Assembly: GCA_902536655.1 (NCBI GenBank)
Contig: CACAYF010000001.1
Span: 39,627-103,626 of the forward strand
From: an uncultured Alphaproteobacteria bacterium
GTDB lineage: Bacteria; Pseudomonadota; Alphaproteobacteria; Methylaequorales; Methylaequoraceae
Direction: 5' to 3'
DNA length: 64,000 nucleotides
Shown here one piece after another: positions 44,721 to 62,035 of the stretch. The position numbers and the translations under genes were made by a program. Within the stretch, counting starts at the first letter, position 1. Every line of letters begins with the position of its first letter. Below the pieces are notes generated by a model. That model saw only the letters and a list, made by a program, of their open reading frames with translations. It made no database searches and was not told the origin of the DNA.

Positions 44721-44730
44721 AGTTTGAATC

Positions 44731-48250: not shown

Positions 48251-48257
48251 TATTTTA

Positions 48258-49180: not shown

Positions 49181-49409
49181 TTTTCGTTAGATCTCTTATT
49201 TTATAATATAGTTTTGCAATTTGGAACCTCAACGCACCACAAAAAGAAGTAAAAGCACAAAACCAAAGAAATAAAGCAAGCAAAAAATTTTTTTCTTCGA
49301 ACACTTCAATGGCCTTAAAGTGGCATATTAATGAGCTGTAAAAAAAAGCAAGAGTAACTATTAGTTGTGAAATATTTCTATTGATCATTTTTTCTTCCAA
49401 ACTCGTCAA
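49167..49409 (-). CDS. small two-TM membrane protein (80 aa)
   Basis: Immediately downstream of flhB, overlapping it. Confidence 0.2.
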   Translation of the reverse strand: MTSLEEKMINRNISQLIVTLAFFYSSLICHFKAIEVFEEKNFLLALFLWFCAFTSFCGALRFQIAKLYYKIRDLTKNEPK

Positions 49410-50529
49410 AAATCATATCTTCAGGAATCTCTATCTCTGGTTTCTCAATTTCTTCTCCATTATCTATTTTATAAATATATGCTAAGGCAATAGCAACAGC
49501 ATTGTAAAGCTTACTCATAATTTCATCACCAATTTCAGATGTATAGTATATTGCTCTTGCCAGTTTAGGACTTTGCATTGTACCAATCTTAAGTTCTTTT
49601 CCTTTCTTAATTATGGATTCAGCAATTTTACCCCTTCCTTTGGATATAATTATAGGTGCTTTTGCGTCCCCAACCTCATATTTAAGAGCTACAGCAAAGT
49701 GTGTTGGGTTTGTAATTATTGCAGTAGCTTCTTTAAGGTTATCAACAGACGATGCTTCTTTTCTACTTTTTGTTGCAGCTTCGGCTTGAAGTTTTCTTAT
49801 TTTTTGTTTGACTTCAGGTTGTCCGTCAGTCTCTTTGTATTCGTCTTTGAGGTCTTGATGAGACATTCTAAGTTGCTTAATATAATCATACTTTTGATAA
49901 ACCACATCTATAAAAGCTATAAATGCGAGAACGATAAGGAGATATGCAATTATTTCTGGAAAAAAAGAAAAAAGTCTATTTACTGCAGAAAAAATATTAG
50001 CAGTTGTTAAGTTGACTAAATCAGATAAATTATTTTCAATCAGAAAAAAAGCTACTAGACCAAGAAGACTGACTTTTAATATAGCTTTTACTAATTCTAC
50101 TAATCCCTTAAGTGAGAATATTCTTTTTAACCCTTTTATAGGATTCATTTTTTCAAACTTCCAGTAAATTGACTTTAAGGAGAAGTTTATTCCACCGATT
50201 AAAAACTGCGTTAGTACACTTACTACCAATAGTGGTATTGAAAAAATTAAAAATACTTGAATGAAAAATTTTACAACCACAGCAACAGATTCAAGAGGAG
50301 ACTTTCCAGAGGTTAGTTCCGGACCAAAAGAAAATAGAGATTTACAAATTTTTAAAAAATCGTCTAATAGAATTGGTGCAAGATAAAATAGTAACACTCC
50401 CATGAACATTGAACTAAAAACAAAAGCTTCTTTTGAAGACAGAACTTTCCCATCCTCTTTTGCTTTTTCAAGCCTTCGGGCCGTGGGTTCCTGGGTTTTT
50501 TCTTGACTTTCGTCTTTGTCTTCAGCCAT
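49378..50529 (-). CDS. flhB: Flagellar export apparatus protein FlhB
   Basis: 4 TMs plus a cytoplasmic domain with the NPTH autocleavage motif (AIITNPTHFAVALKY). Confidence 0.85.
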   Translation of the reverse strand: MAEDKDESQEKTQEPTARRLEKAKEDGKVLSSKEAFVFSSMFMGVLLFYLAPILLDDFLKICKSLFSFGPELTSGKSPLESVAVVVKFFIQVFLIFSIPLLVVSVLTQFLIGGINFSLKSIYWKFEKMNPIKGLKRIFSLKGLVELVKAILKVSLLGLVAFFLIENNLSDLVNLTTANIFSAVNRLFSFFPEIIAYLLIVLAFIAFIDVVYQKYDYIKQLRMSHQDLKDEYKETDGQPEVKQKIRKLQAEAATKSRKEASSVDNLKEATAIITNPTHFAVALKYEVGDAKAPIIISKGRGKIAESIIKKGKELKIGTMQSPKLARAIYYTSEIGDEIMSKLYNAVAIALAYIYKIDNGEEIEKPEIEIPEDMIFDEFGRKNDQ

Positions 50530-50543
50530 TAAATTATATCCTT

Positions 50544-51359
50544 TTAATTAATGAGTATATTTTCTATCGACTCTAAAGAACTTTTGGTAAGCTCTGCAAA
50601 TGCATTTCCTATAGATTGAGAAGCTAAATACATTATGAAGAAAGCTAGAATCATAGTCACTGGGAATGCAAACGAAAACATATTTAATTGAGGAGCTGCT
50701 CTTGTTATAATTCCTATTGCAATGTTTGTTAGTAAAAGTGCTCCAACAACTGGAAGCATTATCAATCCACCTGTGTAAAACATAGCACTAGCAGCTTCTA
50801 TACCCAAACCGACAAGACCAAATGGTGGTATTCCGTCATTAATATTAAAAATTTCAAAGCTTTTAAACAAAAATTCAATCGCAATTAAATGTCCATTTAA
50901 CGATAAAAAAATAGTAATCAAGAATAAGTCTAAAATTAGACTAATTACAGGTGTTTGTCCGCCTGTATCTGGATCAACCATTTGGGAAAAACCTAATCCA
51001 GTAGTAGCTGCTATTTTCTCTCCAGCCAAACTTGCTGCCGCAAACCATATTGTTAGTGTTAAACCCAATGATAATCCAATCAAAGCTTCTGCAATTACTA
51101 CAATAACAAGGTTATCAAGAATTTGTTCTGATATTTGAATATCAGAGAGATACCCAAAATAAAAAAATGAAATCACTAAAGAAAAAATTATTTTTACATT
51201 CAAAGGAATGACTCTTGAACCAAAAAAAGGGCTTGATATGAAAAATGCTGATAATCTTATCGAACATAAAAAGAATTTAAATAAGTACTCAATAAGAGAG
51301 TTTAATTCGAGTCCTGGTAAGGCATCCATAGGACTGTAAAAAGGTAATGGAATAAACAT
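50544..51359 (-). CDS. fliR: Flagellar export apparatus protein FliR
   Basis: Polytopic; position and size. Confidence 0.75.
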   Translation of the reverse strand: MFIPLPFYSPMDALPGLELNSLIEYLFKFFLCSIRLSAFFISSPFFGSRVIPLNVKIIFSLVISFFYFGYLSDIQISEQILDNLVIVVIAEALIGLSLGLTLTIWFAAASLAGEKIAATTGLGFSQMVDPDTGGQTPVISLILDLFLITIFLSLNGHLIAIEFLFKSFEIFNINDGIPPFGLVGLGIEAASAMFYTGGLIMLPVVGALLLTNIAIGIITRAAPQLNMFSFAFPVTMILAFFIMYLASQSIGNAFAELTKSSLESIENILIN

Positions 51360-51625
51360 TAATTTATTCCTGAAATTGTATCAAAAATAAATTGAAAATA
51401 ATCAGTTAAACTTACTAAAAGAAAATTAGCTAAGAAGCCTATTGCAAAGATAACTATGACAATTTTTGGAACAAAACTAAGTGTCATTTCCTGGATTGAA
51501 GTAGCTGCTTGTATAATTCCAATAACCAAGCCAATAGCAAGAGCCGCACCCAGAAATGGACCACTAGAAATCAAAACTTGGTAAAAAGCTAATCTTATCA
51601 TTTCAACATTTTGATCAAATCCCAT
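51359..51625 (-). CDS. fliQ: Flagellar export apparatus protein FliQ
   Basis: 88 aa, 2 TM, FliQ-like sequence. Confidence 0.8.
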   Translation of the reverse strand: MGFDQNVEMIRLAFYQVLISSGPFLGAALAIGLVIGIIQAATSIQEMTLSFVPKIVIVIFAIGFLANFLLVSLTDYFQFIFDTISGIN

Positions 51626-51651
51626 TACCGATTACTCCTAAAACACTAAAT

Positions 51652-52398
51652 TCACGAGAACGTTCCAACCAGAGACCCCACAGTCATTGACCAACCATCA
51701 ACCAAAACAAAAAGGAGTAGTTTAAAGGGTAGGGCAATTAACATTGGAGATAACATCATCATACCAAGTGACATCAAAACAGATGCTACGACCATATCAA
51801 TTACCAAAAAAGGTAAAAAAAGCAAAAAGCCAATCTGAAATGCAGTTTTTAATTCACTCGTAATATATGCTGGCAAAACAATGTAAAAAGGAATTTGAGA
51901 ACTATTTTCAAACTTTCCCTCATTTGCCATTTCAGCGAACATCAATAAGTCATTCTTTCGTGTATTTTTAACCATGAATTTTTTTAACTCACCCCCGCCA
52001 CTTTCAACTGCCTCAGATAAATTCATTTCTCCATTATTATAAGGTTCGGAAACATCAGAGTAAATTTTATTAAAGGTGGGAGCCATTACAAAAAAAGTAA
52101 GAAATAAGGATATAGCAACTAAAATTTGGTTAGGCGGTGTTTGCTGTGTGCCAAGAGCTTGTCTTAAAATAGACATAACAATTATAATTCTTGTAAAAGC
52201 AGTCATTCCTAAAACGAGTGAAGGCAGAATTGTTAAAGCTGTCATCAACGCTAAAATTTTAAGAGACAAAGAATATGTTTTTGTACCATTTTCTGACTCA
52301 GTAATAGTTAATGCTTCTAATCCGTCAGGAGCCATTTGAGAAAACCCAAAAAATGGAAAAAGAATAATAATTAAAAACAAAAAATTAATTTTTTTCAT
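51652..52398 (-). CDS. fliP: Flagellar export apparatus protein FliP
   Basis: Signal peptide; LTALTILPSLVLGMTAFTRIIIV...ALGTQQTPP FliP signature. Confidence 0.85.
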   Translation of the reverse strand: MKKINFLFLIIILFPFFGFSQMAPDGLEALTITESENGTKTYSLSLKILALMTALTILPSLVLGMTAFTRIIIVMSILRQALGTQQTPPNQILVAISLFLTFFVMAPTFNKIYSDVSEPYNNGEMNLSEAVESGGGELKKFMVKNTRKNDLLMFAEMANEGKFENSSQIPFYIVLPAYITSELKTAFQIGFLLFLPFLVIDMVVASVLMSLGMMMLSPMLIALPFKLLLFVLVDGWSMTVGSLVGTFS

Positions 52399-52711
52399 TT
52401 CTTAGCCTATTTTCAAATACTTTCTCAAGATTGTTACCTTTAAGACTGTTGTTTTTTATTTCTGTCAATAAAGAACCTGAATTTTTCCCAGAAATAAAAA
52501 GATAATCTTTATTATCTAAATTTAAGATTAAAGCTCTATCACCCTGTCCCAGTAGGGTAACTTCAGATACTTTCATTCTTTTCTTTGAATTTATGGTTCT
52601 TGAGATTATGTGTTTGTTCTTTTTTATATAATACAAGCCTACAAAAAGCAGAGCTAAAAATCCTAACACGAGTAAATAGTTTGATAAACTTGGACCTACA
52701 TATTCTGTCAT
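52385..52711 (-). CDS. fliO: FliO-like small single-TM protein
   Basis: Position between fliN and fliP; N-terminal TM. Confidence 0.5.
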   Translation of the reverse strand: MTEYVGPSLSNYLLVLGFLALLFVGLYYIKKNKHIISRTINSKKRMKVSEVTLLGQGDRALILNLDNKDYLFISGKNSGSLLTEIKNNSLKGNNLEKVFENRLRNEKN

Positions 52712-52744
52712 TTTCCCCTCTTGATTAGTTTATACAAGAGAGAT

Positions 52745-52759
52745 GCAAAAACCTTGCCG
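52745..52759 (-). promoter_or_regulatory. Candidate internal sigma-54 promoter in the 127-bp fliN-fliO gap
   Basis: Minus strand CGGCAAG-GTTT-TTGC, ~22 nt upstream of the fliO start. Confidence 0.35.
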
Positions 52760-52838
52760 AAACAATAGTATTCGCTTTAAGTAACTGATTTAATTGATGA
52801 ATTATTGATTGAAAAAGAAGATGTCAATTTGCTGACAA

Positions 52839-53240
52839 TTATAAGTTTTCAATTAGTTCTTCTGGGGTAGCAACTTCAGTAAACCTTATACCAAATTTTT
52901 CACCAACCATAACAACTTCGCCTTTAGCAATTTTTGTCCCATTTGCTAAAATATCTAAGGCGTCTCCAGCTAATCTGTCAAGTTCAACAACAGATCCTTC
53001 ATTTAATCTTAGCAAATCTTTGATTTTAATTTCAGTATTTCCAACTTCAACGGTGAGTTTTACTTCGATGTTCTCCAAAAGTCTTAAATTACTTACTGCT
53101 GCAGCATTTTTATCTGAAGTCTTTGAGGATTCTGTCTCAGATTTATTAGCTTGGTTTTCAGCTGAGCCTTCAGGTGCCTTAGTTTCTTCCTGAGCTTGTT
53201 CGGTCTGATTTTTATCTTTTTCTGCTGTTTCTGCATTCAT
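52839..53240 (-). CDS. fliN: Flagellar motor switch protein FliN
   Basis: C-terminal SpoA domain LDRLAGDALDILANGTKIAKGEVVMVGEKFGIRFTEV. Confidence 0.8.
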   Translation of the reverse strand: MNAETAEKDKNQTEQAQEETKAPEGSAENQANKSETESSKTSDKNAAAVSNLRLLENIEVKLTVEVGNTEIKIKDLLRLNEGSVVELDRLAGDALDILANGTKIAKGEVVMVGEKFGIRFTEVATPEELIENL

Positions 53241-53251
53241 AATTTTTCTCC

Positions 53252-54229
53252 TTAATTATTTCGTGTAGCAAGCTTTACTGAAGCATTGCCGTTTAGTTCT
53301 CCCATTTCAGCCTTAAAGTATTTTTGATTTTCAACATAAAAATCCACTTTATCCTCTAAATTTACGTTTAATGTATCTCCTGCCTTCATTCTAAGCAATT
53401 TAGACATTGAGACAACCGGTTCGCATAAATTACTTTTGACTAATAAGGGAATTTCTAATATTGCTTTTTCTAACTTATCCCGCCACGTCATGTTAGATTC
53501 GACTACATCAGATTGAACTCTAGATCTCAGTAAAGATGAAACTGGTTTAAGTGTTTGAAGTGGATACACTACATCAAAAGACATTGAGTCAATATTAGGT
53601 AACTGCATTACAAATGAACATACTATAACTAAATCTGTAGATTCTACAAAAGCAGCAAACTGGGGATTTTGCTCTCTACTTTGAAATTTGATTGAAATAG
53701 GCGTTAAATCTTTCCAACATTGTTCAAGAACCTGGGAGATTCCATTATTTATGACTTCGATTATTTTTTCTTCGGTTGCAGTAAATTCGGTTCTTTCAGC
53801 ATCATTAACCTCCAATTTTCCTCCATATCTACTACTGGTACAAAGACTAACAAAAGATGGTGGCAAAACAGTCAGCATGGAACCTCTTAACTCGTCAATT
53901 CTACTGTTTGTTAAACTCATAAATGCATCTAAACCAGAACTGTATTCTTCGAACGATTTAACTTCTGGGGGAAACGAACTTATTCTAGGTTGAACCCTTA
54001 GCAAAGGGAGAAATACTCCTCTAACTGTTCTTGCGAACCTCTCGTTTATAAGTCTTAAAGCGTAATAATCTCCTAAAAGTGAAAGATCATCTGAGCCGAA
54101 ATTAAATTTTTTGTACTCAATCGCAGTCCCATCTTTAACAGTAGTTGATGCACTTAAATCGCCCGATTTAAGTCCATCCATCAACGCGTTGACTTCTTCA
54201 GTAGATAATTTCCTTGATGGTTCAGACAT
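53252..54229 (-). CDS. fliM: Flagellar motor switch protein FliM
   Basis: N-terminal LSTEEVNALMDG (CheY-binding-like) and FliM middle domain. Confidence 0.8.
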   Translation of the reverse strand: MSEPSRKLSTEEVNALMDGLKSGDLSASTTVKDGTAIEYKKFNFGSDDLSLLGDYYALRLINERFARTVRGVFLPLLRVQPRISSFPPEVKSFEEYSSGLDAFMSLTNSRIDELRGSMLTVLPPSFVSLCTSSRYGGKLEVNDAERTEFTATEEKIIEVINNGISQVLEQCWKDLTPISIKFQSREQNPQFAAFVESTDLVIVCSFVMQLPNIDSMSFDVVYPLQTLKPVSSLLRSRVQSDVVESNMTWRDKLEKAILEIPLLVKSNLCEPVVSMSKLLRMKAGDTLNVNLEDKVDFYVENQKYFKAEMGELNGNASVKLATRNN

Positions 54230-54241
54230 AATTTTTATTTC

Positions 54242-54874
54242 CTATTGTACTACAAATGAGGTAAAATGTACATTTTCTATTCCACCAAAACCTTCAACTT
54301 TCACAAGAACCTCATTAATTCCATCTCTCAATGATTCAGCTAAGTTATTTTTACCCTCTTTACCGGCAATATCTTCAGAAGAAAATTCGGACATGATGGT
54401 TAATATTTCTGATCTAAGAGCAAGCTGATGACTCTCCACATTTACCATTACTTGTTCGTCATATTGAGTTGAAACTCCAACTGAGAGTTGAAGAAACTTT
54501 TTTGAGCCCTTTAAATTAGCTGTGAAATTTCCAGGAAATTCATAATACGTTGTAGTAAAGATTTCTTCTTCAGGTGTGATCTTTGGAATCTTCTTTGGAC
54601 CTGCAGGACAGTTGCCTTCTTCGTCTTTTTCTTCTTCCGCGCATTCAGCAGCAGCTTCATCAATAGTTTCTTCATCTTCATTTTTTGATGGTTCAGGATT
54701 TTCTTTTTTTTCAATAATTTGAGATATCTCAGCTGATGGATCTGTATCTTCTCCCCCACCCATAAAAATTCCAACTCCAATACCTGTTCCTAAAAGAACT
54801 ATGCCACCTACAATCATCAAAATTAATTTTAAGGGTGACTTCTTTTCATTTTCTTGATTATTCTCTTCTGCCAT
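54242..54874 (-). CDS. fliL: Flagellar basal body-associated protein FliL
   Basis: N-terminal TM (LKLILMIVGGIVLLGTGIGVGIF); size and position. Confidence 0.65.
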   Translation of the reverse strand: MAEENNQENEKKSPLKLILMIVGGIVLLGTGIGVGIFMGGGEDTDPSAEISQIIEKKENPEPSKNEDEETIDEAAAECAEEEKDEEGNCPAGPKKIPKITPEEEIFTTTYYEFPGNFTANLKGSKKFLQLSVGVSTQYDEQVMVNVESHQLALRSEILTIMSEFSSEDIAGKEGKNNLAESLRDGINEVLVKVEGFGGIENVHFTSFVVQ

Positions 54875-54901
54875 GATTCTCTCCTTAATATTTTAAATTA
54901 A

Positions 54902-56212
54902 TTAGGCATTCACATCAATATTATGATTACTAATTTTTTGATTTTTATTTTCAACATTTTTTTTATTCTTTTTAGAAATCTCATTGCTCGACAATAAATT
55001 TTCTCTTTCATTTTTTTGGTTAAAATAATTACTGTTGTTGTTTTCATTATTCATATTGCTTGAGAAACTTTTACTTTCTTTATCAATTGATTCTAAAAGT
55101 TTTGGAAGGTTGTCATTAAGAAGACTTACAACATCTTGATTCTCTGAACCAATGTTAACGGTTGTTACACTATTTTTTACAGAAACCTCCAAGTTTAATT
55201 TTCCTAAATTTTTGGGTTTAACCTGAATTTCTAATTTGTTTACACCATTATTAACTGCATTTTTAACAATTCTTGAGAATTTTTCGCCCCAGCTACTCTC
55301 TAATAAATCTAAAAAGATTTGTCCTTTATTGTGCATCTGATTGTCTTTAGTTTCCGGAGTTTTTGAAAAATCTTTATTGCTGATTTCTCTTTTTTGACCT
55401 ATTTGATTTTCTCTTGTTTTCTTCACAATTTGAGAAAAATTAGTATTATTTCTATTCTCCATTTTGACTTGTTTTGCAAGAAGGTCGTTTTGTTCGATTT
55501 CATCTTTTGCTGAAACTTTAAATTGTTTATTTTTTTTGTTTATTTTCTTGTTAATAATCGCAGTTTCAAAATTTGAATTCTTGGCTTTGTAATTAAATTC
55601 ATTTTGCTGCTTCAATACTTTACTATCAATTTGACTTTTATTTTCTGTAAAATATTTTGGATCGTGTTCATTTTTCTTAATTTTTTTTGAAGATGTAGGA
55701 TCTTTAATTATATTTATAACAATTTTTTTTGAATTATCATTTTTAAACGCTAAATCAGAATCATTAGAATCCAATTTATTCTCAACAGCTATTTTTTTTC
55801 CCCCTGTTATAAAATTTTTATTTAATAATGATTTTGGATTTTGATTTAAACTGTTTGGATTAGCATTTTTTGTTTGGTCCAAAGGTTCGACTATACCAAT
55901 TTCTTTATAAAATACCTCTATTAGTGATTTTGCAGTCTCATATTCAGAATCTGTGACCACTAATTTATTTTTCTGCTCGGAAGTTACTTTTAACAAACTA
56001 TTTTCAGAGATATTTTTACTTACATTCAAAAATTCTTCGGTATCAGTTTTTTGTAAGACTACATCTTTCAGCAAATTTTTATTTTCAGGATCTAGACTAT
56101 TTGTATTTATTAGTGCAAAGAGTTCAGCAAATAGCTCATTTGTTTTTTCAGAATGTAAAGTTGAGTTTACGAAATTTATGTTTTTGCTAGTATCATTTTT
56201 AATTGCAACCAT
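54902..56212 (-). CDS. fliK: Flagellar hook-length control protein FliK-like
   Basis: Low-complexity N/K-rich body; C-terminal Flg_hook-like region LEIQVKPKNLGKLNLEVSVKNSVTTVNIGSEN...; position between fliJ and fliL. Confidence 0.5.
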   Translation of the reverse strand: MVAIKNDTSKNINFVNSTLHSEKTNELFAELFALINTNSLDPENKNLLKDVVLQKTDTEEFLNVSKNISENSLLKVTSEQKNKLVVTDSEYETAKSLIEVFYKEIGIVEPLDQTKNANPNSLNQNPKSLLNKNFITGGKKIAVENKLDSNDSDLAFKNDNSKKIVINIIKDPTSSKKIKKNEHDPKYFTENKSQIDSKVLKQQNEFNYKAKNSNFETAIINKKINKKNKQFKVSAKDEIEQNDLLAKQVKMENRNNTNFSQIVKKTRENQIGQKREISNKDFSKTPETKDNQMHNKGQIFLDLLESSWGEKFSRIVKNAVNNGVNKLEIQVKPKNLGKLNLEVSVKNSVTTVNIGSENQDVVSLLNDNLPKLLESIDKESKSFSSNMNNENNNSNYFNQKNERENLLSSNEISKKNKKNVENKNQKISNHNIDVNA

Positions 56213-56255
56213 ATCTGCCCCTTGTTAAAGCAAATGTGCAATTATAATGCCACTA

Positions 56256-56669
56256 TTAAAGAGAAACTGAATTTTTAGGTTTGAAATAATTTTCTTTTTT
56301 TAATTCTTTTACTTTATCTTCTTGAATTTTAATAAATTTCTTTTTTTCACTTATTTTTTCTTTTTGTTTTTCAATTTTTACTATTTCTTTGAGATTATTA
56401 GTAATTTCGTCTAACACATGATTTTCTCTATTTTTTGAAACCTCAAGTTTATTTATTAAATTGCTAGTAAAAGATGCTTTGAATTTTAAATCTGAACCTG
56501 AAAGTTCACCAGATTCCTCTACGGCGCTTTGATTTAACATTTCATTCAACGTTTCTTTTACAAAATCTAACCTTTTTTTTTCATCATTTAGTGTAGATAA
56601 ATTGTTAAGCAACTTATTTTTCTTTAATTTTTTAAGAGTTAAAAAAATATCATATTTATTTTTTCTCAT
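56256..56669 (-). CDS. fliJ: Flagellar export chaperone FliJ-like coiled-coil protein
   Basis: 137 aa coiled coil immediately downstream of fliI. Confidence 0.5.
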   Translation of the reverse strand: MRKNKYDIFLTLKKLKKNKLLNNLSTLNDEKKRLDFVKETLNEMLNQSAVEESGELSGSDLKFKASFTSNLINKLEVSKNRENHVLDEITNNLKEIVKIEKQKEKISEKKKFIKIQEDKVKELKKENYFKPKNSVSL

Positions 56670-56673
56670 GTCA

Positions 56674-57993
56674 TCAGTTAATCTTCTTCAAGCTTGTTAT
56701 GCTATCTTCAAAACTTGATTTCATTTTAAAATGCTGTTTTATATGACTGCAAATTTTATTCCAATTATTTAATGCACTATCAATTTCAGGGTTTTGCCCT
56801 TGGGTATATCCCCCCATAAGAATGAGATCTTTGTTTTCTTGGTATATGGAGTATAATTTTTTTACTAATTCAGACTGATTTTGATGTTCTTCGGTAACAA
56901 TAGAATTCATTACTCTACTTAATGATTGATTTAAATCAATTGCAGGAAAAATTCCAAGTTGTGCAAGCTCTCTAGATAATACAATATGTCCATCTAATAT
57001 TGCTCTGGCAGTGTCTACTACAGGATCGTTCGTATCATCAGAATCTGCCAGTATTGTATAGAAACTTGTTATAGTTCCTTCATTTTTTGAACCGGCTCCA
57101 GTTCTTTCGATTAGATTTGGAATCATTGAAATTACAGATGTTGGGTATCCTTTTGAAGTAGGTTGTTCACCGAGTGCCAACCCTACCTCTCGTTTCGCAT
57201 GAGCTATTCTGGTAAGAGAGTCCATAATAAGCAAAACGTTTTTTCCTTTAGACCTAAAATGTTCTGCAATTGAAGTTGCTCTTTCTGCTCCTTTAATTCT
57301 TAATAATGGCGATTTGTCAGCTGGCACGGCTACGGTGACAGTTCTTTTTCTTGATTCGTCATTTAATATTTCTGATACAAAATTGCCTAACTCTCTTCCT
57401 CTTTCTCCGATCAGTGCTACAACAACAACATCAGCGTCAGTAAACTTAGTCATCATTCCGAGTAAAATAGATTTTCCAACTCCAGAACCTGCAATAATTC
57501 CAAGCCTTTGACCTCTTCCCACAGTAAAAAGTGAATTGATCGCTCTAATACCAACATCTAGCACTTCATTTATTGGTTTTTTTGACATTGGGTTATTAGG
57601 TTTTCCATTAATTGGCCATGTTTCTGCAGAGTCATTTATTTTTGCGCCTCCATCTATTGGATTCCCAAAAGCATCTAAAACCCTTCCAAGTAAATGAGAA
57701 CCCACAATTACGTCATTTGATGAATTTAAGACTCTTATTTCAGATCCTAAAATTATGTTTGCATTATTTTCATGAACGGCAATAATATTTTTATTTTCTT
57801 TGAAACCAATGATTTCTCCCGTGACTATAGATTTGTCATTACATTCTATTTCACATGTTGTACCGATGGGTGAGGGAAATGCTTCACATTCGACAACTTT
57901 ACCGTCATATTTTGATGTTTTACTCTTATAGATCCTGTTTTGAGATATAGTATGTGAATCTAAAGTCTGAAGTATTTTTTTTGCTATAACCAT
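56674..57993 (-). CDS. fliI: Flagellum-specific ATP synthase FliI
   Basis: Walker A GQRLGIIAGSGVGKS; F1/T3SS ATPase family. Confidence 0.85.
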   Translation of the reverse strand: MVIAKKILQTLDSHTISQNRIYKSKTSKYDGKVVECEAFPSPIGTTCEIECNDKSIVTGEIIGFKENKNIIAVHENNANIILGSEIRVLNSSNDVIVGSHLLGRVLDAFGNPIDGGAKINDSAETWPINGKPNNPMSKKPINEVLDVGIRAINSLFTVGRGQRLGIIAGSGVGKSILLGMMTKFTDADVVVVALIGERGRELGNFVSEILNDESRKRTVTVAVPADKSPLLRIKGAERATSIAEHFRSKGKNVLLIMDSLTRIAHAKREVGLALGEQPTSKGYPTSVISMIPNLIERTGAGSKNEGTITSFYTILADSDDTNDPVVDTARAILDGHIVLSRELAQLGIFPAIDLNQSLSRVMNSIVTEEHQNQSELVKKLYSIYQENKDLILMGGYTQGQNPEIDSALNNWNKICSHIKQHFKMKSSFEDSITSLKKIN

Positions 57994-58017
57994 TTATGTT
58001 TAATTCTAAATAAAAGT

Positions 58018-58884
58018 TTATTTTTGAGAATTTAATTTGGTATCTTCAAGATCTTTCTCAATTTCATCAGGTATTGAAAATTTAATTTTTTTAGAAACAA
58101 TGTCACTCATCTCTATTGATCCTGATTTTATTCTCATATCGCCTCGTTCAAGTTTTGCGTCTTGATTGATTTCAAATGACAAACTTAAATTATTTTTGCT
58201 GTTGTAAGCTTTTATAGATTCAAAATCTTTTGGATTTAAAAAAACTACAATATTTTCAATTGAGTTTTCAACTGAATTAACAACTTGCTTAATTTTTTCT
58301 TGAAATAATTTATTGTTATTATCTATCTCGTAACCTAAAACTTCTTTTGATAAATTTGAAAGTAAATTCGTTATTGATTTGTTTAATTCATTAACAAATT
58401 CTGGCGTCATTTTAAAAATATTATCAGTTGTATTTTTAAGTGTCACAGCAAGCGATTTTTCTCCTTTTTGAAGCTCTTCTGTAGTTTTTTTTACTCCAAG
58501 TTTATAACCATTGTTGTAATATTGTTTTGCTAAGTCATTGGCTAATTTTTGTGCTTCTACTTCTGTATATATTTTTTCATTTTCTGGTTTTTTTTCATCG
58601 ATAACATCACTTGTTTGTTGCTTTTCGTTACTTTCAGAAACTTCATTTAAATCTTTTGTTACTTCTTCTTTTTTTTCAGATGTTATTTCTTGATTTTTTT
58701 GTGCAAGGGATAATGGAGTAATTTTTTTAAACAAATTAGTAATGTTAGAAGTGATATCTGACTCTTTTACGAAGTCTTTATTACTTTTATTTAATAAACT
58801 AACAATTTCTTCAGTGCTAAGTGCTCCAGAAATTTTTTCATCACTTTTTTGCTGAGTTTCAGTTTTGTCTGTGAGTGGCATCAT
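58018..58884 (-). CDS. fliH: Flagellar assembly protein FliH
   Basis: Position between fliG and fliI; E/K-rich N-terminus plus FliH-like C-terminus. Confidence 0.55.
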   Translation of the reverse strand: MMPLTDKTETQQKSDEKISGALSTEEIVSLLNKSNKDFVKESDITSNITNLFKKITPLSLAQKNQEITSEKKEEVTKDLNEVSESNEKQQTSDVIDEKKPENEKIYTEVEAQKLANDLAKQYYNNGYKLGVKKTTEELQKGEKSLAVTLKNTTDNIFKMTPEFVNELNKSITNLLSNLSKEVLGYEIDNNNKLFQEKIKQVVNSVENSIENIVVFLNPKDFESIKAYNSKNNLSLSFEINQDAKLERGDMRIKSGSIEMSDIVSKKIKFSIPDEIEKDLEDTKLNSQK

Positions 58885-59930
58885 ACGAAGTCATCTCCAC
58901 CTCTTCCAGCAAGCACAATTGTTCCTTCGTCTGACATAGTTCTTGCTACATTTATGATAGCCTTCTGAGCCTCTTGAACTTCTGTAAGTCTCAGTGGGCC
59001 AAGTACTTCCATTTCATCTCTGATGTTTGCCGAAGCTCTTTGAGACATGCACGAGAAAATCTTATCTTTTAATTCGTCTTCTGTTCCTTTAAGCGCAATT
59101 ATAAGAATTTCTTGATCAACATTTCTTAATAAAGTTTGCATGCTTCTATCATCCATTAAAATTAACGTGTCAAAGGTAAACATACTTTCCTGAATTTCTT
59201 TAGCTAAATTTCTATCTTTTTCACCTAATGTTTTCATGATTCTTTGTTCCATATTTTGCTTTGTAAAATTCATTATTGATGCAGCATCTTTTATTCCACC
59301 GACTGAGGAGGCTCGCAATGAAGTGTTTGTTTTAAATTTAAGTTGCATAACCCTTTCTAATTCCGCCAAAGCGTCTGGTTGAACTGTTTCTAGAGTTGCA
59401 ATGCGATGAATAATATCAGATTGAGTTTCTTCGGGTAGCAAAGTTAAAACATCTGCTGCAACACCGGGCTCTAAATACGAAATTATCAATGCCATTATTT
59501 GAGGATGTTCATCAGAAATTAATTCTGCAACTGATCTGGCATCCATCCAATCTAAAATTTCTATTGGTTTGTCACTTTCAGTAGGGGTAATTCTTCCAAG
59601 AACAGACTGAGCTTTATTTTCGCCTAAGGCTTTTGTCATTACATTTCTTATGTAGTTTGTAGAACCCATTCCCAAGTCAGTTTGTGTTTTTATGATGGCT
59701 AAAAATTCGTCTAAAACTCTATTTACAGTTTCTTGATCTAAACCTTGAACATTGTACATCTCTTTACCGAGTTGCTGCACTTCTTTTGGACCCAAATTTT
59801 TTAAAATTTCTGAAGCCTCTTCCTCGCCTAAAAGCATCATCAAAATAGCACATTTTTGAGTGCTTGTTAATTGTTCATATTGCGACTTTTCTTCTTCTTC
59901 TTTATTTTCTTCCTTAGCTTTTTCAGCCAT
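58881..59930 (-). CDS. fliG: Flagellar motor switch protein FliG
   Basis: FliG N, M and C domains; CAILMMLLGEEEASEILKNL; C-terminal torque helix. Confidence 0.85.
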   Translation of the reverse strand: MAEKAKEENKEEEEKSQYEQLTSTQKCAILMMLLGEEEASEILKNLGPKEVQQLGKEMYNVQGLDQETVNRVLDEFLAIIKTQTDLGMGSTNYIRNVMTKALGENKAQSVLGRITPTESDKPIEILDWMDARSVAELISDEHPQIMALIISYLEPGVAADVLTLLPEETQSDIIHRIATLETVQPDALAELERVMQLKFKTNTSLRASSVGGIKDAASIMNFTKQNMEQRIMKTLGEKDRNLAKEIQESMFTFDTLILMDDRSMQTLLRNVDQEILIIALKGTEDELKDKIFSCMSQRASANIRDEMEVLGPLRLTEVQEAQKAIINVARTMSDEGTIVLAGRGGDDFV

Positions 59931-59954
59931 TTGAGTACTCCTTATTAATTTATA

Positions 59955-61679
59955 TTATATATCTTTTTTCATAAGTTGTCTGAATACATTTGAAACTTTT
60001 CCAGCTTCATCTCCCACTATCATCCTGATAACAGCAACTTTATCGTCGTAAGTATTGGCCGTATCGAGCATATCTGCTGAAATAGTTGATTTTTTTGGTT
60101 TAAGTTTAGCTTTTATGTCTTCGAGAGATTCGCCTTCTTGAACTTGAACTTCATCTTCTGCTTCTTCTGCCTCAAGATCAGCCTCAGAAGTACCACCTGG
60201 ACCTGCAGCTGTTCCAGCTGAAGGAACTAAAATTCTATTTAACAATGGCTTTAATGCACCGAATGTTACGATTGCAAGAATTAGAACAGTAGATAACTGA
60301 CCAACCATATTTTGAAACCATGATTGTTCATACCATTTAGTTGTAATAACATCCATTTCTTGGATAAAATCTCCGCTGGTTACAACAATTGTGTCTTCTC
60401 TATCCTCATTGAAACCAACCGCTTCTTTAACAAGAGAAGTAATTTTTTCTCTATCTTCTTCACTTATAGGCTCAGAGACGACTGTGCCTTCCGGAGTTTC
60501 AATCATTTTATTTTTAACTAAAACAGCCGTCTTAACTTTTTTAATTTTTCCAATTTGACCAACAGTTGTGCTAAGTTTTTTGCTAACTTCGTAGTTTTTA
60601 ACATTACTGGATGATCTTTGCTTGAATTCTGCTGGTTCCCCAGTTTCAGGAGCTGCAACTTGTAAATCAGCAGCTAAAGGAGCCTGGTTAGCAACTGCAC
60701 CTGGAACTCCTCGTGCAGGTCTGTCTGTAGATTCATCTTGACTGTTTTGCTCACTTCTTGTTGAAATACTCTCAGGATCGAAAATTTCCTCTGTGGTTTG
60801 ATTGCTTGTAAAATCCATTTCAACATTTACTTGGGCTGTTAAATTACCTGCACCAACGATTGGAGAAACTAATGATAAAATTCTTTCTCTGTATATAGAT
60901 TCAATTTTCACTCTGTGTGCTAATTGTTTCTCTGTCATTGCTAAATTGGGATCATCTTCTGGTTTTGACAATAACGAACCATATTGATCTACAACTGTTA
61001 CATTATCGGAAGTCATGTTAGGAATTGATGATGACACTATATGAACAATTGATCTAATTTGCTCTAAACCTAAAGCTCTTCCATCAGCTAGTTTAACAAA
61101 TACAGATGCAGTGGGAGGAGAGGAGTCCCTGACAAAAACAGATTTTTCAGGAATTGCTAGATGTACCCTTGCTCCAATAATGTTAGCTATTTCATTTATC
61201 GATCTGGCAAGCTCTATTTCTTGAGTCTGTTTCATTTTCATAAATTCAACTGACCTACTTGTGCCCATTGGAATTTTTTCAAGTATATCATAACCTTGAG
61301 GAACAGAGCTTGGCAAACCTTCTGCAGCAAGCTTCATTTTTGCTTCATAATATTCTGGAGATGGTACTAAAATTTCACCTGTTGTTCTGTCGATTGAAAC
61401 ATCAATTCCATTAGATCTTAAAACATCAATTACTCTGGATTTCTCATGTTCAGGTAATGTTGCAAATAAGGTTGTTCTTGGGGGTTCTCTGAAAGATATA
61501 AAAAAAACTAAACCAAGAAAAATAACAAATAAAGTTATCATAACTGGGATAGATCTTTGGACAGCAGGTTCATTAGAAAATTTTTTAATTTTTTCTAAAG
61601 AATTGCTAATATTTGATAGCATTCCTTGATTTGACGCTAAATTTTTTGTTACTTCAGTAGTTTGAATTTCTTCAGCCAT
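59955..61679 (-). CDS. fliF: Flagellar MS-ring protein FliF
   Basis: YscJ/FliF N-terminal domain LFATLPEHEKSRVIDVLRSNGIDV; C-terminal TM; 574 aa. Confidence 0.85.
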   Translation of the reverse strand: MAEEIQTTEVTKNLASNQGMLSNISNSLEKIKKFSNEPAVQRSIPVMITLFVIFLGLVFFISFREPPRTTLFATLPEHEKSRVIDVLRSNGIDVSIDRTTGEILVPSPEYYEAKMKLAAEGLPSSVPQGYDILEKIPMGTSRSVEFMKMKQTQEIELARSINEIANIIGARVHLAIPEKSVFVRDSSPPTASVFVKLADGRALGLEQIRSIVHIVSSSIPNMTSDNVTVVDQYGSLLSKPEDDPNLAMTEKQLAHRVKIESIYRERILSLVSPIVGAGNLTAQVNVEMDFTSNQTTEEIFDPESISTRSEQNSQDESTDRPARGVPGAVANQAPLAADLQVAAPETGEPAEFKQRSSSNVKNYEVSKKLSTTVGQIGKIKKVKTAVLVKNKMIETPEGTVVSEPISEEDREKITSLVKEAVGFNEDREDTIVVTSGDFIQEMDVITTKWYEQSWFQNMVGQLSTVLILAIVTFGALKPLLNRILVPSAGTAAGPGGTSEADLEAEEAEDEVQVQEGESLEDIKAKLKPKKSTISADMLDTANTYDDKVAVIRMIVGDEAGKVSNVFRQLMKKDI

Positions 61680-61696
61680 AATTATTTCCTTTTAAT

Positions 61697-62035
61697 TTAA
61701 ACAGGCATGTTCATAATGTCTTTATATGCGCTCAAGACTTTATTTCTTACGTTTAAAGTCATTTGAAAACCTAAACTAGACAATTGTTGTTGAATCATAA
61801 CTTTAGTCAAATCGTTCTCTATACCAAGCTCAAAGTTTTTCGTCAATTCAGCGCTTTGTTTCTGGGTATCAGAAACCTCTTGAATCGCTGACTTAATATT
61901 ATCCAAAAAACCACCATCTTGTGGTTCCATTATTTTTGGAGACAGATTTGCAACCTCTTCTTGAACTTTCTTTATTTCATTTTGGTTGTTTGGTGTGGTA
62001 ACTGTTGGTTTTAAATTAGTAAGATTTGGTTTCAT
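61697..62035 (-). CDS. fliE: Flagellar hook-basal body protein FliE
   Basis: C-terminal VRNKVLSAYKDIMNMPV FliE signature. Confidence 0.8.
   Translation of the reverse strand: MKPNLTNLKPTVTTPNNQNEIKKVQEEVANLSPKIMEPQDGGFLDNIKSAIQEVSDTQKQSAELTKNFELGIENDLTKVMIQQQLSSLGFQMTLNVRNKVLSAYKDIMNMPV

What the first reader, a model, noticed from the sequence alone, without database searches (positions are those of the whole stretch)
49378..62035. Complete Vibrio/Pseudomonas-ordered fliE-F-G-H-I-J-K-L-M-N-O-P-Q-R-flhB cluster in a ~29% GC streamlined genome
Seen in sequence: all 15 genes are identified by family signatures (FliE VRNK..AY.DIMNM; FliI Walker A; FliN SpoA domain; FliP signature; FlhB NPTH). 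They are contiguous on one strand in the gammaproteobacterial polar-flagellum order.

Established knowledge: well-known streamlined AT-rich marine lineages such as SAR11 are non-motile. This gene order with an upstream sigma-54 activator is typical of Vibrio (flrC-fliE...) and of the horizontally acquired fla1 system of Rhodobacter (fleT-fliE...).

Inference: either a flagellated AT-rich lineage, or horizontal acquisition of a gamma-type flagellar system. flhA, flhF, flhG, fliA and the rod, hook and filament genes must be elsewhere in the genome.
Basis: partly seen in the sequence, partly recalled or inferred. Interest (0 to 1): 0.5.

Follow-up and report, generated by a model that had tools for sequence, protein, structure and literature searches.

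The report
Flagellar gene cluster of marine TMED127
This is an intact, ordinary flagellar basal-body and export gene cluster, inherited vertically in TMED127 ("Methylaequorales"), an abundant marine bacterial order with tiny AT-rich genomes, so these streamlined methanol-eaters are very probably swimmers, unlike SAR11.

Summary
Window 49378-62035 (minus strand) carries fliE-F-G-H-I-J-K-L-M-N-O-P-Q-R-flhB without interruption. Thirteen genes pass Pfam thresholds. FliO is only sub-threshold. FliJ rests on position, size and a helical model only.

The host is not a mystery lineage. The nearest genomes (FliI 97-98%) are single-cell genomes of GTDB order TMED127, genus GCA-2691245, obligate methylotrophs of about 1.5 Mb.

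The same cluster, with the same flanking genes, occurs in 8 TMED127 genera and in about 60 SAR116 loci. GC3 equals the rest of the window, and dN/dS is 0-0.26. That argues for vertical inheritance, not recent transfer.

The system is the Fla1 type of Cereibacter sphaeroides (called "fla3" in Rhodobacterales). It has a divergent FleQ-like activator, and a FleT-like activator without an HTH as first gene. rpoN and motAB lie nearby, and there are sigma-54-type promoter matches.

It resembles beta/gamma systems (FliG 41-44%) far more than classical alpha systems (26%). Its closest relatives, however, are alphaproteobacterial.

flhA-flhF-flhG-fliA, flgBCDE, flgM, flgA, flgT and flgP lie at a second locus in TMED127 genomes.

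Verdict: a new member of a known kind, of modest interest.

The parts
63401..64000 (+). 5' part (200 of 354 codons) of a FleQ-like sigma-54 activator. It is transcribed divergently, starts directly with the AAA+ domain, and is cut by the window end.
   Evidence: Translation. The full gene in relatives has Sigma54_activat + HTH_8 (L081 1477-2541; L003 3529-4593). It is 50% identical to the O. arcticus FleQ-like gene.
63243..63258 (-). Sigma-54-type promoter match TGGCAAtatttTTGCT upstream of the FleT-like gene.
   Evidence: 1 mismatch. A GG-N10-GC motif is kept at this position in 12 of the 14 TMED127 loci scanned and in most of the SAR116 loci scanned. Sequence context.
62052..63236 (-). FleT-like sigma-54 activator. 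It has an AAA+ domain with GAFTGA and a lid, no HTH, and no recognisable receiver domain. The probable real start is ATG 63209 (385 aa).
   Evidence: Pfam. GAFTGA at residue 204 and C-terminus. Called as 385 aa on metagenome contigs. RBS + ATG. Best solved relative is 'Flagellar regulatory protein C' 4qhs.
61697..62035 (-). fliE
   Evidence: PF02049, 88.5 bits
59955..61679 (-). fliF (MS ring)
   Evidence: PF01514 + PF08345
58881..59930 (-). fliG (rotor/switch)
   Evidence: FliG_N/M/C. 100% identical in L001, L002 and L004, and one non-synonymous change in L003.
58018..58884 (-). fliH
   Evidence: PF02108, 55.6 bits
56674..57993 (-). fliI (export ATPase)
   Evidence: PF00006 + PF18269. P-loop AGSGVGKS.
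56256..56669 (-). fliJ candidate, assigned by context only
   Evidence: Sits between fliI and fliK. 137 aa. Conserved in the clade. dN/dS 0.12-0.19. Model of two long helices. No family or fold support.
56237..56252 (-). Sigma-54-type promoter match TGGCATtataaTTGCA in the fliJ-fliK gap.
   Evidence: 1 mismatch. Also seen in L001, L003 and L008.
54902..56212 (-). fliK (hook-length control)
   Evidence: PF02120, 45.1 bits
54242..54874 (-). fliL
   Evidence: PF03748. NCBIfam FliL models, below cutoff.
53252..54229 (-). fliM, with an N-terminal CheY-binding-like motif LSTEEVNALM
   Evidence: PF02154 + PF01052. Sequence. The motif reading is my own knowledge.
52839..53240 (-). fliN
   Evidence: PF01052, 80.4 bits
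52744..52759 (-). Weaker sigma-54-type match CGGCAAggtttTTGCA in the 127-nt fliN-fliO gap.
   Evidence: 2 mismatches. Kept 38-49 nt before fliO in all 14 TMED127 loci scanned.
52385..52711 (-). fliO (sub-threshold)
   Evidence: TIGR03500 E=3.9e-6. PF04347 E=0.002. One N-terminal TM helix.
51652..52398 (-). fliP
   Evidence: PF00813, 266.8 bits. PDB FliP chains at 242-255 bits.
51359..51625 (-). fliQ
   Evidence: PF01313
50544..51359 (-). fliR
   Evidence: PF01311
49378..50529 (-). flhB, with NPTH autocleavage site
   Evidence: PF01312, 339 bits. NPTH at 274.
47450..49409 (-). Conserved co-directional tail after flhB. o80 (49167-49409) has 2 TM helices. o66 (48980-49180) is Cys-rich. o241 (48258-48983) has 1 TM helix plus a long periplasmic helical part. 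o266 (47450-48250) has a PDZ-like N-terminus and 1 TM helix. Function unknown; probably accessory flagellar proteins.
   Evidence: Overlapping or adjacent ORFs. Kept after flhB in TMED127, SAR116 and the O. arcticus plasmid. dN/dS 0.02-0.45. TM prediction.
46841..47440 (-). Divergent ribosome-recycling-factor-family gene, the last gene of the same-strand run.
   Evidence: Pfam RRF E=6e-12. frr equivalog 30.9 bits against a cutoff of 149. The only PDB hits are RRFs. dN/dS 0.02.
43947..45915 (+). motA (43947-44720) and motB (44731-45915), the stator. There is a sigma-54-like match at 43881-43896.
   Evidence: PF01618; PF13677 + PF00691. 66% and 45% identical to O. arcticus MotA and MotB. Promoter match. 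MotB sequence.
40934..42394 (-). rpoN (sigma-54)
   Evidence: Sigma54_AID/CBD/DBD. An rpoN also sits in the O. arcticus cluster and in the C. sphaeroides fla1 locus (PMC7277832).
39964..40611 (+). Lytic transglycosylase (SLT) gene at 39991-40611, preceded by a perfect sigma-54 consensus TGGCACttaaaTTGCT. Candidate flagellar (SltF-like) rod-penetration enzyme.
   Evidence: PF01464. Zero-mismatch promoter match. The SltF analogy is inference from my own knowledge.

Best explanation
**What it is.** The region is the basal-body, switch and export half of a working flagellar regulon. The host is a TMED127 ('Methylaequorales') alphaproteobacterium of genus GCA-2691245.

**How it most likely works.** The steps below are inferred by analogy with C. 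sphaeroides Fla1.
1. A FleQ-like enhancer-binding protein, which has a DNA-binding HTH, acts with sigma-54. The rpoN gene lies 7 kb away.
2. Together they fire a promoter in front of fleT-fliEFGHIJ.
3. The HTH-less FleT-like protein then works with FleQ on further sigma-54 promoters. Candidates lie before fliK, fliO, motAB and an SLT gene.
4. These operons build the MS ring (FliF), the C ring (FliG/M/N), the export gate (FliPQR-FlhB, with FliO) and the ATPase complex (FliH, FliI and the FliJ candidate). They also supply hook-length control (FliK) and the stator (MotAB, FliL).

A second locus elsewhere in the genome supplies flhA-flhF-flhG-fliA, flgBCDE, flgM, flgA and the H-ring/disk genes flgT and flgP.

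**Origin.** The cluster has been inherited vertically within TMED127. It shares a common origin with the SAR116 clusters and with the 'fla3-type' (Fla1) clusters that move horizontally among Rhodobacterales.
For: **Gene content and integrity.**

**Host identity.**
- FliI is 97-98% identical and the DNA is 93-94% identical and collinear with SAGs AG-337-K15, AG-891-J16, AG-892-F10 and AH-287-P08.
- These SAGs are listed as o__TMED127; g__GCA-2691245 in Table S3 of PMC12542740.

**Vertical inheritance.**
- Gene order is identical, including the non-flagellar flanks, in 17 loci from 8 TMED127 genera.
- TMED127 is monophyletic 100/100, and same-genus pairs group 100/100.
- GC3 is 0.21 in the cluster and 0.19-0.21 elsewhere in the window.

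**Function retained.**
- dN/dS is 0.00-0.26 for all 16 genes.
- FlhB has NPTH, FliI has its P-loop, and FliM has a CheY-binding-like N-terminus.

**Fla1-type regulation.**
- A FleQ-like gene with HTH_8 lies divergently upstream. A FleT-like gene without an HTH is the first gene of the run.
- This matches the hierarchy described in PMC7277832.
- The same layout, with rpoN, motAB, flgT and flgP, is on the O. arcticus plasmid.
- Sigma-54 consensus matches number 35 against 16.5±4 expected. They sit in the right gaps and are conserved.

**Rest of the regulon.** An flhA locus lies on PARR01000039.1 of MAG SP101 and on CACEXK010000009.1 of SAG AG-404-M02. Both genomes are TMED127 and both also carry the fli cluster as L011 and L009.
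Against: - The flhA/flg locus was shown for other TMED127 genera, not for the window's own genome or genus.
- flgF-L, flagellin, fliD, fliS and che genes were not seen at all. They would lie beyond the ends of the fetched loci.
- FliJ is unverified and FliO is sub-threshold.
- Promoter calls are consensus matches only. One of them, before o241, lies inside coding sequence.
- There are no expression or microscopy data. The one TMED127 genomics paper never mentions motility.
- The tree is neighbour-joining on six proteins. It has no Vibrio, Pseudomonas or C. sphaeroides sequences. AT-driven amino-acid bias could pull TMED127 towards low-GC SAR116.
Confidence: 0.85

Rival explanations
1. Recent horizontal acquisition of a gammaproteobacterial (Vibrio/Pseudomonas-type) polar flagellar cluster by this particular AT-rich genome.
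For: - The gene order fliE...flhB, with an upstream sigma-54 activator, resembles gamma polar systems.
- The best solved-structure matches are 'Flagellar regulatory protein C' and FliG, FliP and FlhB chains that I recall as Vibrio entries.
- FliG, FliI and FliP are closer to E. coli and Ralstonia than to a classical alpha cluster.
Against: - GC3 is indistinguishable from that of neighbouring genes.
- The same cluster sits in the same genomic context in 8 TMED127 genera and in SAR116.
- The closest non-TMED127 relatives are alphaproteobacterial at 52-59% FliI. The named gamma representative, Photobacterium, is at 44%, and E. coli at 46%.
- There is no receiver domain and no sensor-kinase gene, and flhA-F-G-fliA do not follow flhB.
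Confidence: 0.02
2. Ancient transfer. The whole Fla1/fla3-type system entered a common ancestor of SAR116 and TMED127 from a beta/gamma-proteobacterial donor and has been vertical since. Alternatively, this type is ancestral in these deep alphaproteobacteria and the Rhodobacterales received it from them. This concerns only the deep origin and is compatible with the best explanation.
For: - Identity runs beta/gamma (FliG 41-44%, FliP 52%) above classical alpha (FliG 26%, FliP 43%).
- The literature holds that C. sphaeroides Fla1 came from an ancient gammaproteobacterium (PMC7277832).
- The Rhodobacterales census calls fla3 a recruitment 'from other alphaproteobacterial orders' (PMC11974857).
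- The O. arcticus fla3-type plasmid nests inside the SAR116-labelled radiation.
Against: - No gamma polar-flagellum or Rhodospirillales sequences were available for the tree, so direction and timing are untested.
- The distance method is sensitive to composition.
Confidence: 0.4
3. A relic or re-purposed export apparatus, as in Buchnera: a basal body used for secretion or a decaying remnant, not for swimming.
For: - The genome is very small (about 1.5 Mb) and streamlined.
Against: - Motor-specific genes are intact and under strong purifying selection: FliG (no or one non-synonymous change against three relatives), FliM, FliN and FliL. MotA and MotB are intact, but their dN/dS was not measured because the relatives' loci do not reach them.
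- TMED127 genomes keep fliA, flgM, flgE (about 1290-1305 aa), flgD, flgT and flgP.
- FliM retains a CheY-binding-like motif.
Confidence: 0.05

Closest known systems
Fla1 system of Cereibacter (Rhodobacter) sphaeroides. This is the 'fla3-type' flagellar gene cluster of Rhodobacterales, represented here by Octadecabacter arcticus plasmid pOA238_118.
   Same: - A divergent FleQ-like activator, and an HTH-less FleT-like activator as the first gene of fleT-fliEFGHIJ.
- Then fliKLMN(O)PQR-flhB, followed by the same unnamed genes (o66, o241, o266).
- rpoN and motAB are in the neighbourhood.
- flgT and flgP (H-ring/disk genes) and a giant FlgE occur in the lineage.
- Identity to O. arcticus: FliG 67%, FliP 64%, MotA 66%.
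   Different: - The host is a 1.5-Mb AT-rich planktonic methylotroph in which the cluster is chromosomal and vertically inherited. In Rhodobacterales the type is patchy and horizontally spread.
- The regulon is split into at least two loci.
- motAB is linked here but unlinked in C. sphaeroides.
- No C. sphaeroides sequence was available for direct comparison.
- MotF equivalence is untested.
Flagellar clusters of SAR116 / Puniceispirillales, both high- and low-GC subclades
   Same: Same gene order from the FleQ-like gene to o266 in about 60 loci. FliI is 52-59% and FliG 65-73% identical. The low-GC members have the same 28-31% GC.
   Different: - In SAR116, flagellin, fliS and fliD lie just upstream of the FleQ-like gene. 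In TMED127 that position holds unrelated genes.
- The o127 + Sel1 pair sits by fliA/flgG in SAR116 but by the bactofilin genes in the window.
Vibrio / Pseudomonas polar flagellar region (flrA/fleQ, flrBC/fleSR, fliE...fliR, flhB, flhA, flhF, flhG, fliA)
   Same: - fliE-to-flhB order on one strand.
- Sigma-54 plus enhancer-binding-protein control.
- The best solved homologues are 'Flagellar regulatory protein C' 4qhs, FliG 8z4d (272 bits, against 234 for 8umd) and FlhB 6s3l. That these entries are Vibrio and 8umd is Salmonella is from memory.
- flhF, flhG, flgT and flgP are present in the lineage.
   Different: - The activator has no receiver domain, no HTH and no cognate kinase gene.
- flhA-flhF-flhG-fliA are at a separate locus.
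- Identity is only about 44% for FliI (Photobacterium representative).
Enteric fliE / fliFGHIJK / fliLMNOPQR operons (E. coli K-12)
   Same: Same internal order of fliF-K and fliL-R. FliP is 52%, FliI 46% and FliG 41% identical.
   Different: - In E. coli fliE is divergent, flhB sits elsewhere with flhA, and control is by FlhDC/sigma-28 with no sigma-54.
- E. coli FliJ and FliO are not detectably similar by sequence.
Classical alphaproteobacterial cluster, represented here by the Sulfitobacter pontiacus plasmid. The census reference for the fla2 type, Marinovum algicola, was hit at FliG 26% but not fetched.
   Same: Homologous core proteins.
   Different: - The gene order is completely different (fliI; flgBC-fliE-fliQ; flhA-fliR-flhB; fliL-fliM; fliF-fliN-fliP; fliG), with flaF/flbT regulators.
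- Identity is low: FliG 26%, FliF 26%, FliI 37%.

Membership tests
Bacterial flagellar basal-body/export genes (fliE-fliR, flhB) | Each product matches its curated family model above the gathering score. | tested here: met
   13 of 15 pass. FliO is best-hit but below cutoff in Pfam and NCBIfam. FliJ has no hit.
Bacterial flagellar basal-body/export genes (fliE-fliR, flhB) | FliJ: a coiled-coil stalk protein of the export ATPase, homologous to the FliJ family. | tested here: inconclusive
Bacterial flagellar basal-body/export genes (fliE-fliR, flhB) | Catalytic and processing motifs are intact (FliI Walker A, FlhB NPTH). | tested here: met
   AGSGVGKS. ITNPTHFAV at 274.
Fla1 (C. sphaeroides) / fla3-type flagellar gene cluster | Two sigma-54 enhancer-binding proteins: FleQ with a DNA-binding domain, and FleT without one as the first gene of the fliEFGHIJ operon. 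| tested here: met
   A 354-aa divergent gene with HTH_8 in relatives, of which the first 200 codons lie in the window. A 385/394-aa activator ends 17 residues after the AAA lid. The scheme is from PMC7277832. The same pair is in O. arcticus.
Fla1 (C. sphaeroides) / fla3-type flagellar gene cluster | A sigma-54 gene associated with the locus, and sigma-54 promoters before the operons. | tested here: met
   rpoN at 40934-42394. Consensus matches lie before fleT, fliK, fliO and motA, in excess over shuffles and conserved in relatives. Their function was not tested.
Fla1 (C. sphaeroides) / fla3-type flagellar gene cluster | Accessory motor proteins FlgT (H ring) and FlgP. | tested here: met
   Not in the window. 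FlgT_N and LPP20 genes lie next to flhA in TMED127 genomes SP101-related, AG-404-M02 and others.
Fla1 (C. sphaeroides) / fla3-type flagellar gene cluster | MotF: about 24 kDa, a single TM helix around residues 54-74, and a large periplasmic C-terminus. | tested here: inconclusive
   o241 has the same size class and topology (TM at 49-67) and is conserved after flhB, also in O. arcticus. No C. sphaeroides MotF sequence or paper could be obtained.
Fla1 (C. sphaeroides) / fla3-type flagellar gene cluster | Sequence affinity: closer to fla3-type clusters than to other flagellar types. | tested here: met
   The O. arcticus plasmid is the best of 231 plasmid records (FliG 67%, the next at 44%). The six-protein tree groups TMED127, SAR116 and O. 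arcticus 100/100, excluding E. coli. C. sphaeroides itself was not compared.
Vibrio/Pseudomonas polar flagellar cluster | FlrC/FleR-type response regulator (REC + AAA+ + HTH) with a sensor kinase FlrB/FleS immediately upstream of fliE. | tested here: not met
   No Response_reg or HTH domain, even at E<=5. The upstream neighbour is a divergent FleQ-like gene, then a rhodanese-family gene, and no kinase.
Vibrio/Pseudomonas polar flagellar cluster | flhA-flhF-flhG-fliA directly downstream of flhB. | tested here: not met
   flhB is followed by o80, o66, o241, o266 and the RRF-like gene. The flhA block is on other contigs in TMED127 genomes.
Classical alphaproteobacterial (CtrA-controlled) flagellar cluster | Characteristic scattered operon order with flaF/flbT, and high identity to alpha-type proteins. 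| tested here: not met
   Order and identity differ strongly from the Sulfitobacter plasmid. FliG is 25-31% identical to the plasmid-borne FliG of Azospirillum, Hyphomicrobiales, Rhodovastum and the Rhodobacterales other than O. arcticus.

The most novel reading that the evidence does not exclude
The conserved genes that ride behind flhB (o80, o66, o241, o266, and in TMED127 a divergent ribosome-recycling-factor paralogue) may be uncharacterised components of the Fla1/fla3-type motor. On this reading o241 is the wide-spread counterpart of MotF, a stator-activating protein currently described as Cereibacter-specific. This motor type would then be native to the deep-branching marine alphaproteobacteria SAR116 and TMED127. 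They, rather than a gammaproteobacterium, would be the source of the textbook 'foreign' Fla1 flagellum of C. sphaeroides.
Probability: 0.3. Interest if true: 0.5.

Novelty: new member of a known kind. Interest (0 to 1): 0.3.

Why it matters
TMED127/'Methylaequorales' can make up several percent of surface-ocean metagenomic reads. It was recently described as a streamlined obligate methylotroph, and that description does not mention motility.

A complete, strongly constrained flagellar regulon in a genome of about 1.5 Mb would make it a swimming oligotroph, probably chemotactic. SAR11, the classic streamlined marine lineage, has no flagellar or chemotaxis genes. This bears on how these cells find methanol sources such as phytoplankton.

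It also adds a large, vertically inherited alphaproteobacterial reservoir of the Fla1/fla3 motor type. That is relevant to the long-standing claim that this type came from Gammaproteobacteria.

As a genetic element, however, the cluster is ordinary.

Tried and rejected
1. Exact-protein look-ups of window genes, to walk beyond the window. The activator was not on record under its TTG start. FliE gave only contigs of 10 kb or less. A glycan-island gene gave a 1-kb contig.
2. A protein search with O. arcticus FlhA, meant to find the TMED127 flhA, returned only Rhodobacterales. It was replaced by a DNA-pattern scan of metagenomes for the FlhA motif MPGKQMAIDADLNAG written in AT-rich codons. Clustering and two more searches followed.
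3. Naming the 50%-identity FliI representatives by cluster look-up gave one organism name out of ten, Photobacterium.
5. Sigma-70 promoter and intrinsic-terminator scans showed no excess over shuffles.
6. Supplementary tables of PMC12542740 were searched for flagellar, chemotaxis or frr annotations and expression of SAG AG-892-F10. Nothing was found. The stored table is cut after about 475 genes, apparently before the fli-cluster contig CACMWI010000004.
7. The MotF paper is not held.
8. A gapless sliding-identity comparison failed after small indels. The per-gene codon alignments were used instead.
9. AEGEAN-169/HIMB59 was considered as the host and dropped once the SAG names were matched to TMED127.

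Full report
**Observation.**
ORF listing shows an unbroken run of fifteen minus-strand genes at exactly the reported coordinates, 49378-62035, with short gaps or overlapping stop/start codons. Pfam puts thirteen of them above the curated thresholds. These are FliE, FliF, FliG (all three domains), FliH, FliI, FliK, FliL, FliM, FliN, FliP, FliQ, FliR and FlhB.

FliE ends ...VRNKVLSAYKDIMNMPV, the FliI P-loop is AGSGVGKS, and FlhB carries NPTH.

Two assignments are weaker than claimed.
- FliO is the best hit in both Pfam and NCBIfam, but below cutoff.
- The 137-aa ORF between fliI and fliK has no detectable similarity to FliJ. This was tested by family models, by a 12-sequence profile against the PDB, and by hhalign against E. 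coli and Ralstonia FliJ.
- Its single-sequence model is two long helices. That is what FliJ looks like, but also what hundreds of coiled coils look like.

**Whose genome is it?**
A scan of one genome per GTDB species with FliI found relatives at 97-98% identity in the single-cell genomes AH-287-P08, AG-891-J16, AG-337-K15 and AG-892-F10. A further thirteen AT-rich 'Alphaproteobacteria/Pelagibacteraceae/Rickettsiales' genomes matched at 68-79%.

Table S3 of the 2025 paper on TMED127/'Methylaequorales' lists these genomes as order TMED127. The four closest are genus GCA-2691245. The others are genera TMED13, MED-G10, GCA-2711515, GCA-2711625, GCA-002690875, SP4073 and GCA-2710765.

That paper describes the order as deep-branching, abundant in tropical and subtropical surface water, about 1.5 Mb, and obligately methylotrophic. 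It never mentions flagella or motility.

The window is collinear with L001 and L003 over 17.3 kb at 93-94% nucleotide identity.

**Vertical or horizontal?**
In all 17 TMED127 loci the order is identical as far as each locus extends. It runs activator, fliE...flhB, then four small unnamed genes (o80, o66, o241, o266) and an RRF-like gene.

The same order from activator to o266 recurs in about 60 loci labelled SAR116/Puniceispirillales, with GC from 28% to 57%.

GC3 of the cluster is 0.21, against 0.19-0.21 in the glycan island and housekeeping parts of the window. The slightly higher total GC comes from codon positions 1 and 2.

dN/dS against three congeners is 0.00-0.26 for every gene, including the FliJ and FliO candidates and the unnamed tail genes.

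A neighbour-joining tree of FliF, FliG, FliI, FliM, FliP and FliR gave these results.
- TMED127 is monophyletic (100/100).
- The two TMED13 genomes pair together (100/100).
- The window groups with GCA-2691245 (100/100).
- The whole TMED127 + SAR116 group is separate from E. coli (100/100).

**What kind of flagellar system?**
The upstream activator has the sigma-54 AAA+ domain with GAFTGA and a lid, then ends. It has no HTH and no receiver domain, even at permissive thresholds.

Its real start is probably ATG 63209, giving 385 aa as called on metagenome contigs. That start lies behind an AAGGA ribosome-binding site and a TGGCAA-N5-TTGCT motif.

Divergently upstream, cut by the window end, lies a second activator that begins directly with the AAA+ domain. 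In relatives it carries HTH_8.

This is the FleQ/FleT arrangement of the C. sphaeroides Fla1 hierarchy. There FleQ with sigma-54 turns on fleT-fliEFGHIJ, and FleQ/FleT together turn on the later operons (PMC7277832).

Consistent with that, the window also holds the following.
- rpoN at 40934-42394 and motAB at 43947-45915.
- An excess of sigma-54 consensus matches: 35 against 16.5±4 in shuffles.
- The best matches sit in the gaps before fleT, fliK, fliO and motA, and, with no mismatch, before a lytic-transglycosylase gene.
- The fleT and fliO motifs are kept across TMED127 genera.

Among 72,556 plasmids the only close relative is pOA238_118 of Octadecabacter arcticus (FliG 67%; the next best is Ralstonia at 44%). 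Its annotation shows the same FleQ/FleT-fliE...flhB block followed by homologues of o66, o241 and o266. It also carries rpoN, motAB, flgT, flgP, flhA, fliA, the flg genes and a SEL1 gene.

In the Rhodobacterales literature this type is called fla3, with C. sphaeroides 2.4.1 as the reference. It is regarded there as horizontally spread (PMC11974857).

**Is it 'gamma-type'?**
As a resemblance, yes. Identities to the window fall in this order.

| Compared with | FliG | FliI | FliP |
|---|---|---|---|
| Other TMED127 genera | 87-93% | 68-79% | 79-85% |
| SAR116 | 67-73% | 57-58% | 70-71% |
| O. arcticus plasmid | 67% | 53% | 64% |
| E. coli | 41% | 46% | 52% |
| Ralstonia | 44% | 44% | not in the fetched locus |
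| Sulfitobacter plasmid (classical alpha) | 26% | 37% | 43% |

The gene order of the Sulfitobacter plasmid is also entirely different.

The best solved-structure matches are 'Flagellar regulatory protein C' for the activator, and chains that I recall as Vibrio entries for FliG, FlhB and FliP.

Membership of the Vibrio/Pseudomonas architecture nevertheless fails on two defining points. There is no FlrBC/FleSR two-component pair, and flhA-flhF-flhG-fliA do not follow flhB.

Against 1.8 billion representatives, the nearest clusters outside the query's own are at 46% or less. The one that could be named is Photobacterium at 44%.

The deep origin stays open. It could be native to these alphaproteobacteria or an ancient import. 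In the tree the O. arcticus cluster nests within the SAR116-labelled radiation. This fits the Rhodobacterales census's phrase 'from other alphaproteobacterial orders'.

**The missing genes.**
None of flhA, flhF, flhG, fliA, the flg genes or flagellin is in the window or in the 4.7 kb beyond its end in L003.

I scanned metagenome contigs for the conserved FlhA motif MPGKQMAIDADLNAG written in AT-rich codons. This gave two AT-rich FlhA clades with Fla1-type neighbours.
- Clade A carries names such as Puniceispirillales.
- Clade B is TMED127.
  - One member lies on PARR01000039.1 of MAG SP101 (g__GCA-2711625).
  - Another lies on CACEXK010000009.1 of SAG AG-404-M02 (g__GCA-2711515, 0% estimated contamination).
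  - Both genomes also carry the fli cluster, as L011 and L009.

The clade B locus reads as follows.
- flgE (about 1290-1305 aa), flgD, flgC, flgB.
- flgM, flgA, an unnamed gene, flgT, flgP.
- Divergently: flhA, an flhF candidate (380-385 aa, assigned by position and by an O. arcticus-type neighbour), flhG, fliA, and a 138-aa ORF.
- A flgG-like gene.
- Then TRAP transporter genes and pyruvate kinase.

Rings, hook-associated proteins, flagellin, fliD, fliS and che genes were not reached. The locus was not shown for genus GCA-2691245 itself.

**Assessment.**
The explanation is the mundane one: an intact, vertically inherited flagellar regulon.

What is mildly new is the host. An abundant, streamlined marine methylotroph order, not previously discussed as motile, has this regulon. 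It also shows that the Fla1/fla3 motor type has a broad native home in SAR116 and TMED127.

The conserved unnamed genes behind flhB, the co-directional RRF paralogue, and the sigma-54-type motifs before the bactofilin and transglycosylase genes are leads, not results.

Noticed in passing
window 46841-47440 (-): A strongly conserved (dN/dS 0.02) but very divergent ribosome-recycling-factor-family gene ends the same-strand run that starts at fleT. It scores Pfam RRF E=6e-12 and only 30.9 bits against the frr equivalog cutoff of 149. The only PDB hits are RRFs (best 1ge9, E=4e-6). Homologues at 28-34% lie beside the cluster in some low-GC SAR116 loci. It is unknown whether this is the cell's only frr or a flagellum-linked paralogue.
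   Followed up: partly
window 47450-49409 (-): Four unnamed genes follow flhB: o80 (2 TM helices), o66 (Cys-rich, 66 aa), o241 (1 TM helix plus a long periplasmic helical region) and o266 (PDZ-like N-terminus, 1 TM helix). They are conserved behind flhB from TMED127 through SAR116 to the O. arcticus plasmid. There o66 is unannotated and the other two are 'hypothetical'. o241 has the size and topology reported for C. sphaeroides MotF.
   Followed up: partly
window 36775-37898 (-), 38028-40611 (+): Three tandem bactofilin genes are preceded by a sigma-54-type motif, TGGCAAaattaTTGCA (37883-37898). Divergent from them lie a 180-aa ORF, an M23 peptidase and an SLT transglycosylase. The SLT gene has a perfect TGGCAC-N5-TTGCT motif at 39964-39979. 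This looks like a cell-shape/peptidoglycan module tied to the flagellar sigma-54 regulon.
   Followed up: partly
window 40617-40829 (+): A sigma-54-type motif (TGGCAAagtatTTGCA), a strong GAAGGAG ribosome-binding site and a 56-aa ORF (ATG 40659) with no known family lie between the SLT gene and rpoN.
   Followed up: no
window 35409-36445 (-); L152 9090-9440; L215 16223-17256: The 127-aa ORF and the Sel1-repeat protein next to it have homologues (54-55% and about 31%) placed beside fliA/flgG in the flhA loci of low-GC SAR116. A SEL1 gene also sits beside flagellin on the O. arcticus plasmid. They are probably flagellum-associated genes that have moved in TMED127.
   Followed up: partly
window 47450-48983 vs 49378-62035, compared with L001-L003: Synonymous divergence from congeners is 0.03-0.34 across the fli genes. 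It jumps to 0.6-1.1 in o241, o266 and the RRF-like gene, while dN stays low. This could be a recombination boundary or different allele histories. It is unexplained.
   Followed up: no
window 1-19035: A polysaccharide/glycan biosynthesis island with the lowest GC of the window (0.24-0.28). It holds GT4 glycosyltransferases, asparagine-synthase-like amidotransferases, a sulfatase-family protein, UDP-GlcNAc 2-epimerase, a DegT aminotransferase and methyltransferases. TMED127 flhA loci end in a sugar epimerase/dehydratase gene, so this island may separate the two flagellar loci and could be a flagellin-glycosylation island. Untested.
   Followed up: no
window 20026-23392 (+): Three adjacent genes encode an FGE-sulfatase-domain protein, a histidine-specific SAM methyltransferase (Methyltransf_33) and a class-V aminotransferase. 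The set looks like an ovothiol/ergothioneine-type thiol-histidine pathway.
   Followed up: no
window 30942-33971 (+): A 1009-aa protein has only a weak, partial PEP carboxylase match (E=1e-17, residues 115-612). It may be a divergent PEP carboxylase, which would fit the serine-cycle methylotrophy proposed for TMED127.
   Followed up: no
L223, L229, L231 (positions 1-2940); L215 1-3584: The hook protein FlgE is very large in these lineages: about 1290-1305 aa in TMED127 and 1711 aa in a low-GC SAR116 locus. This echoes the oversized FlgE and FlgK of the O. arcticus plasmid (1410 and 1436 aa).
   Followed up: no
window 43355-43855 (-): A 166-aa protein with an Lcl_C domain (Legionella collagen-like protein C-terminal domain) sits between rpoN and motA.
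   Followed up: no
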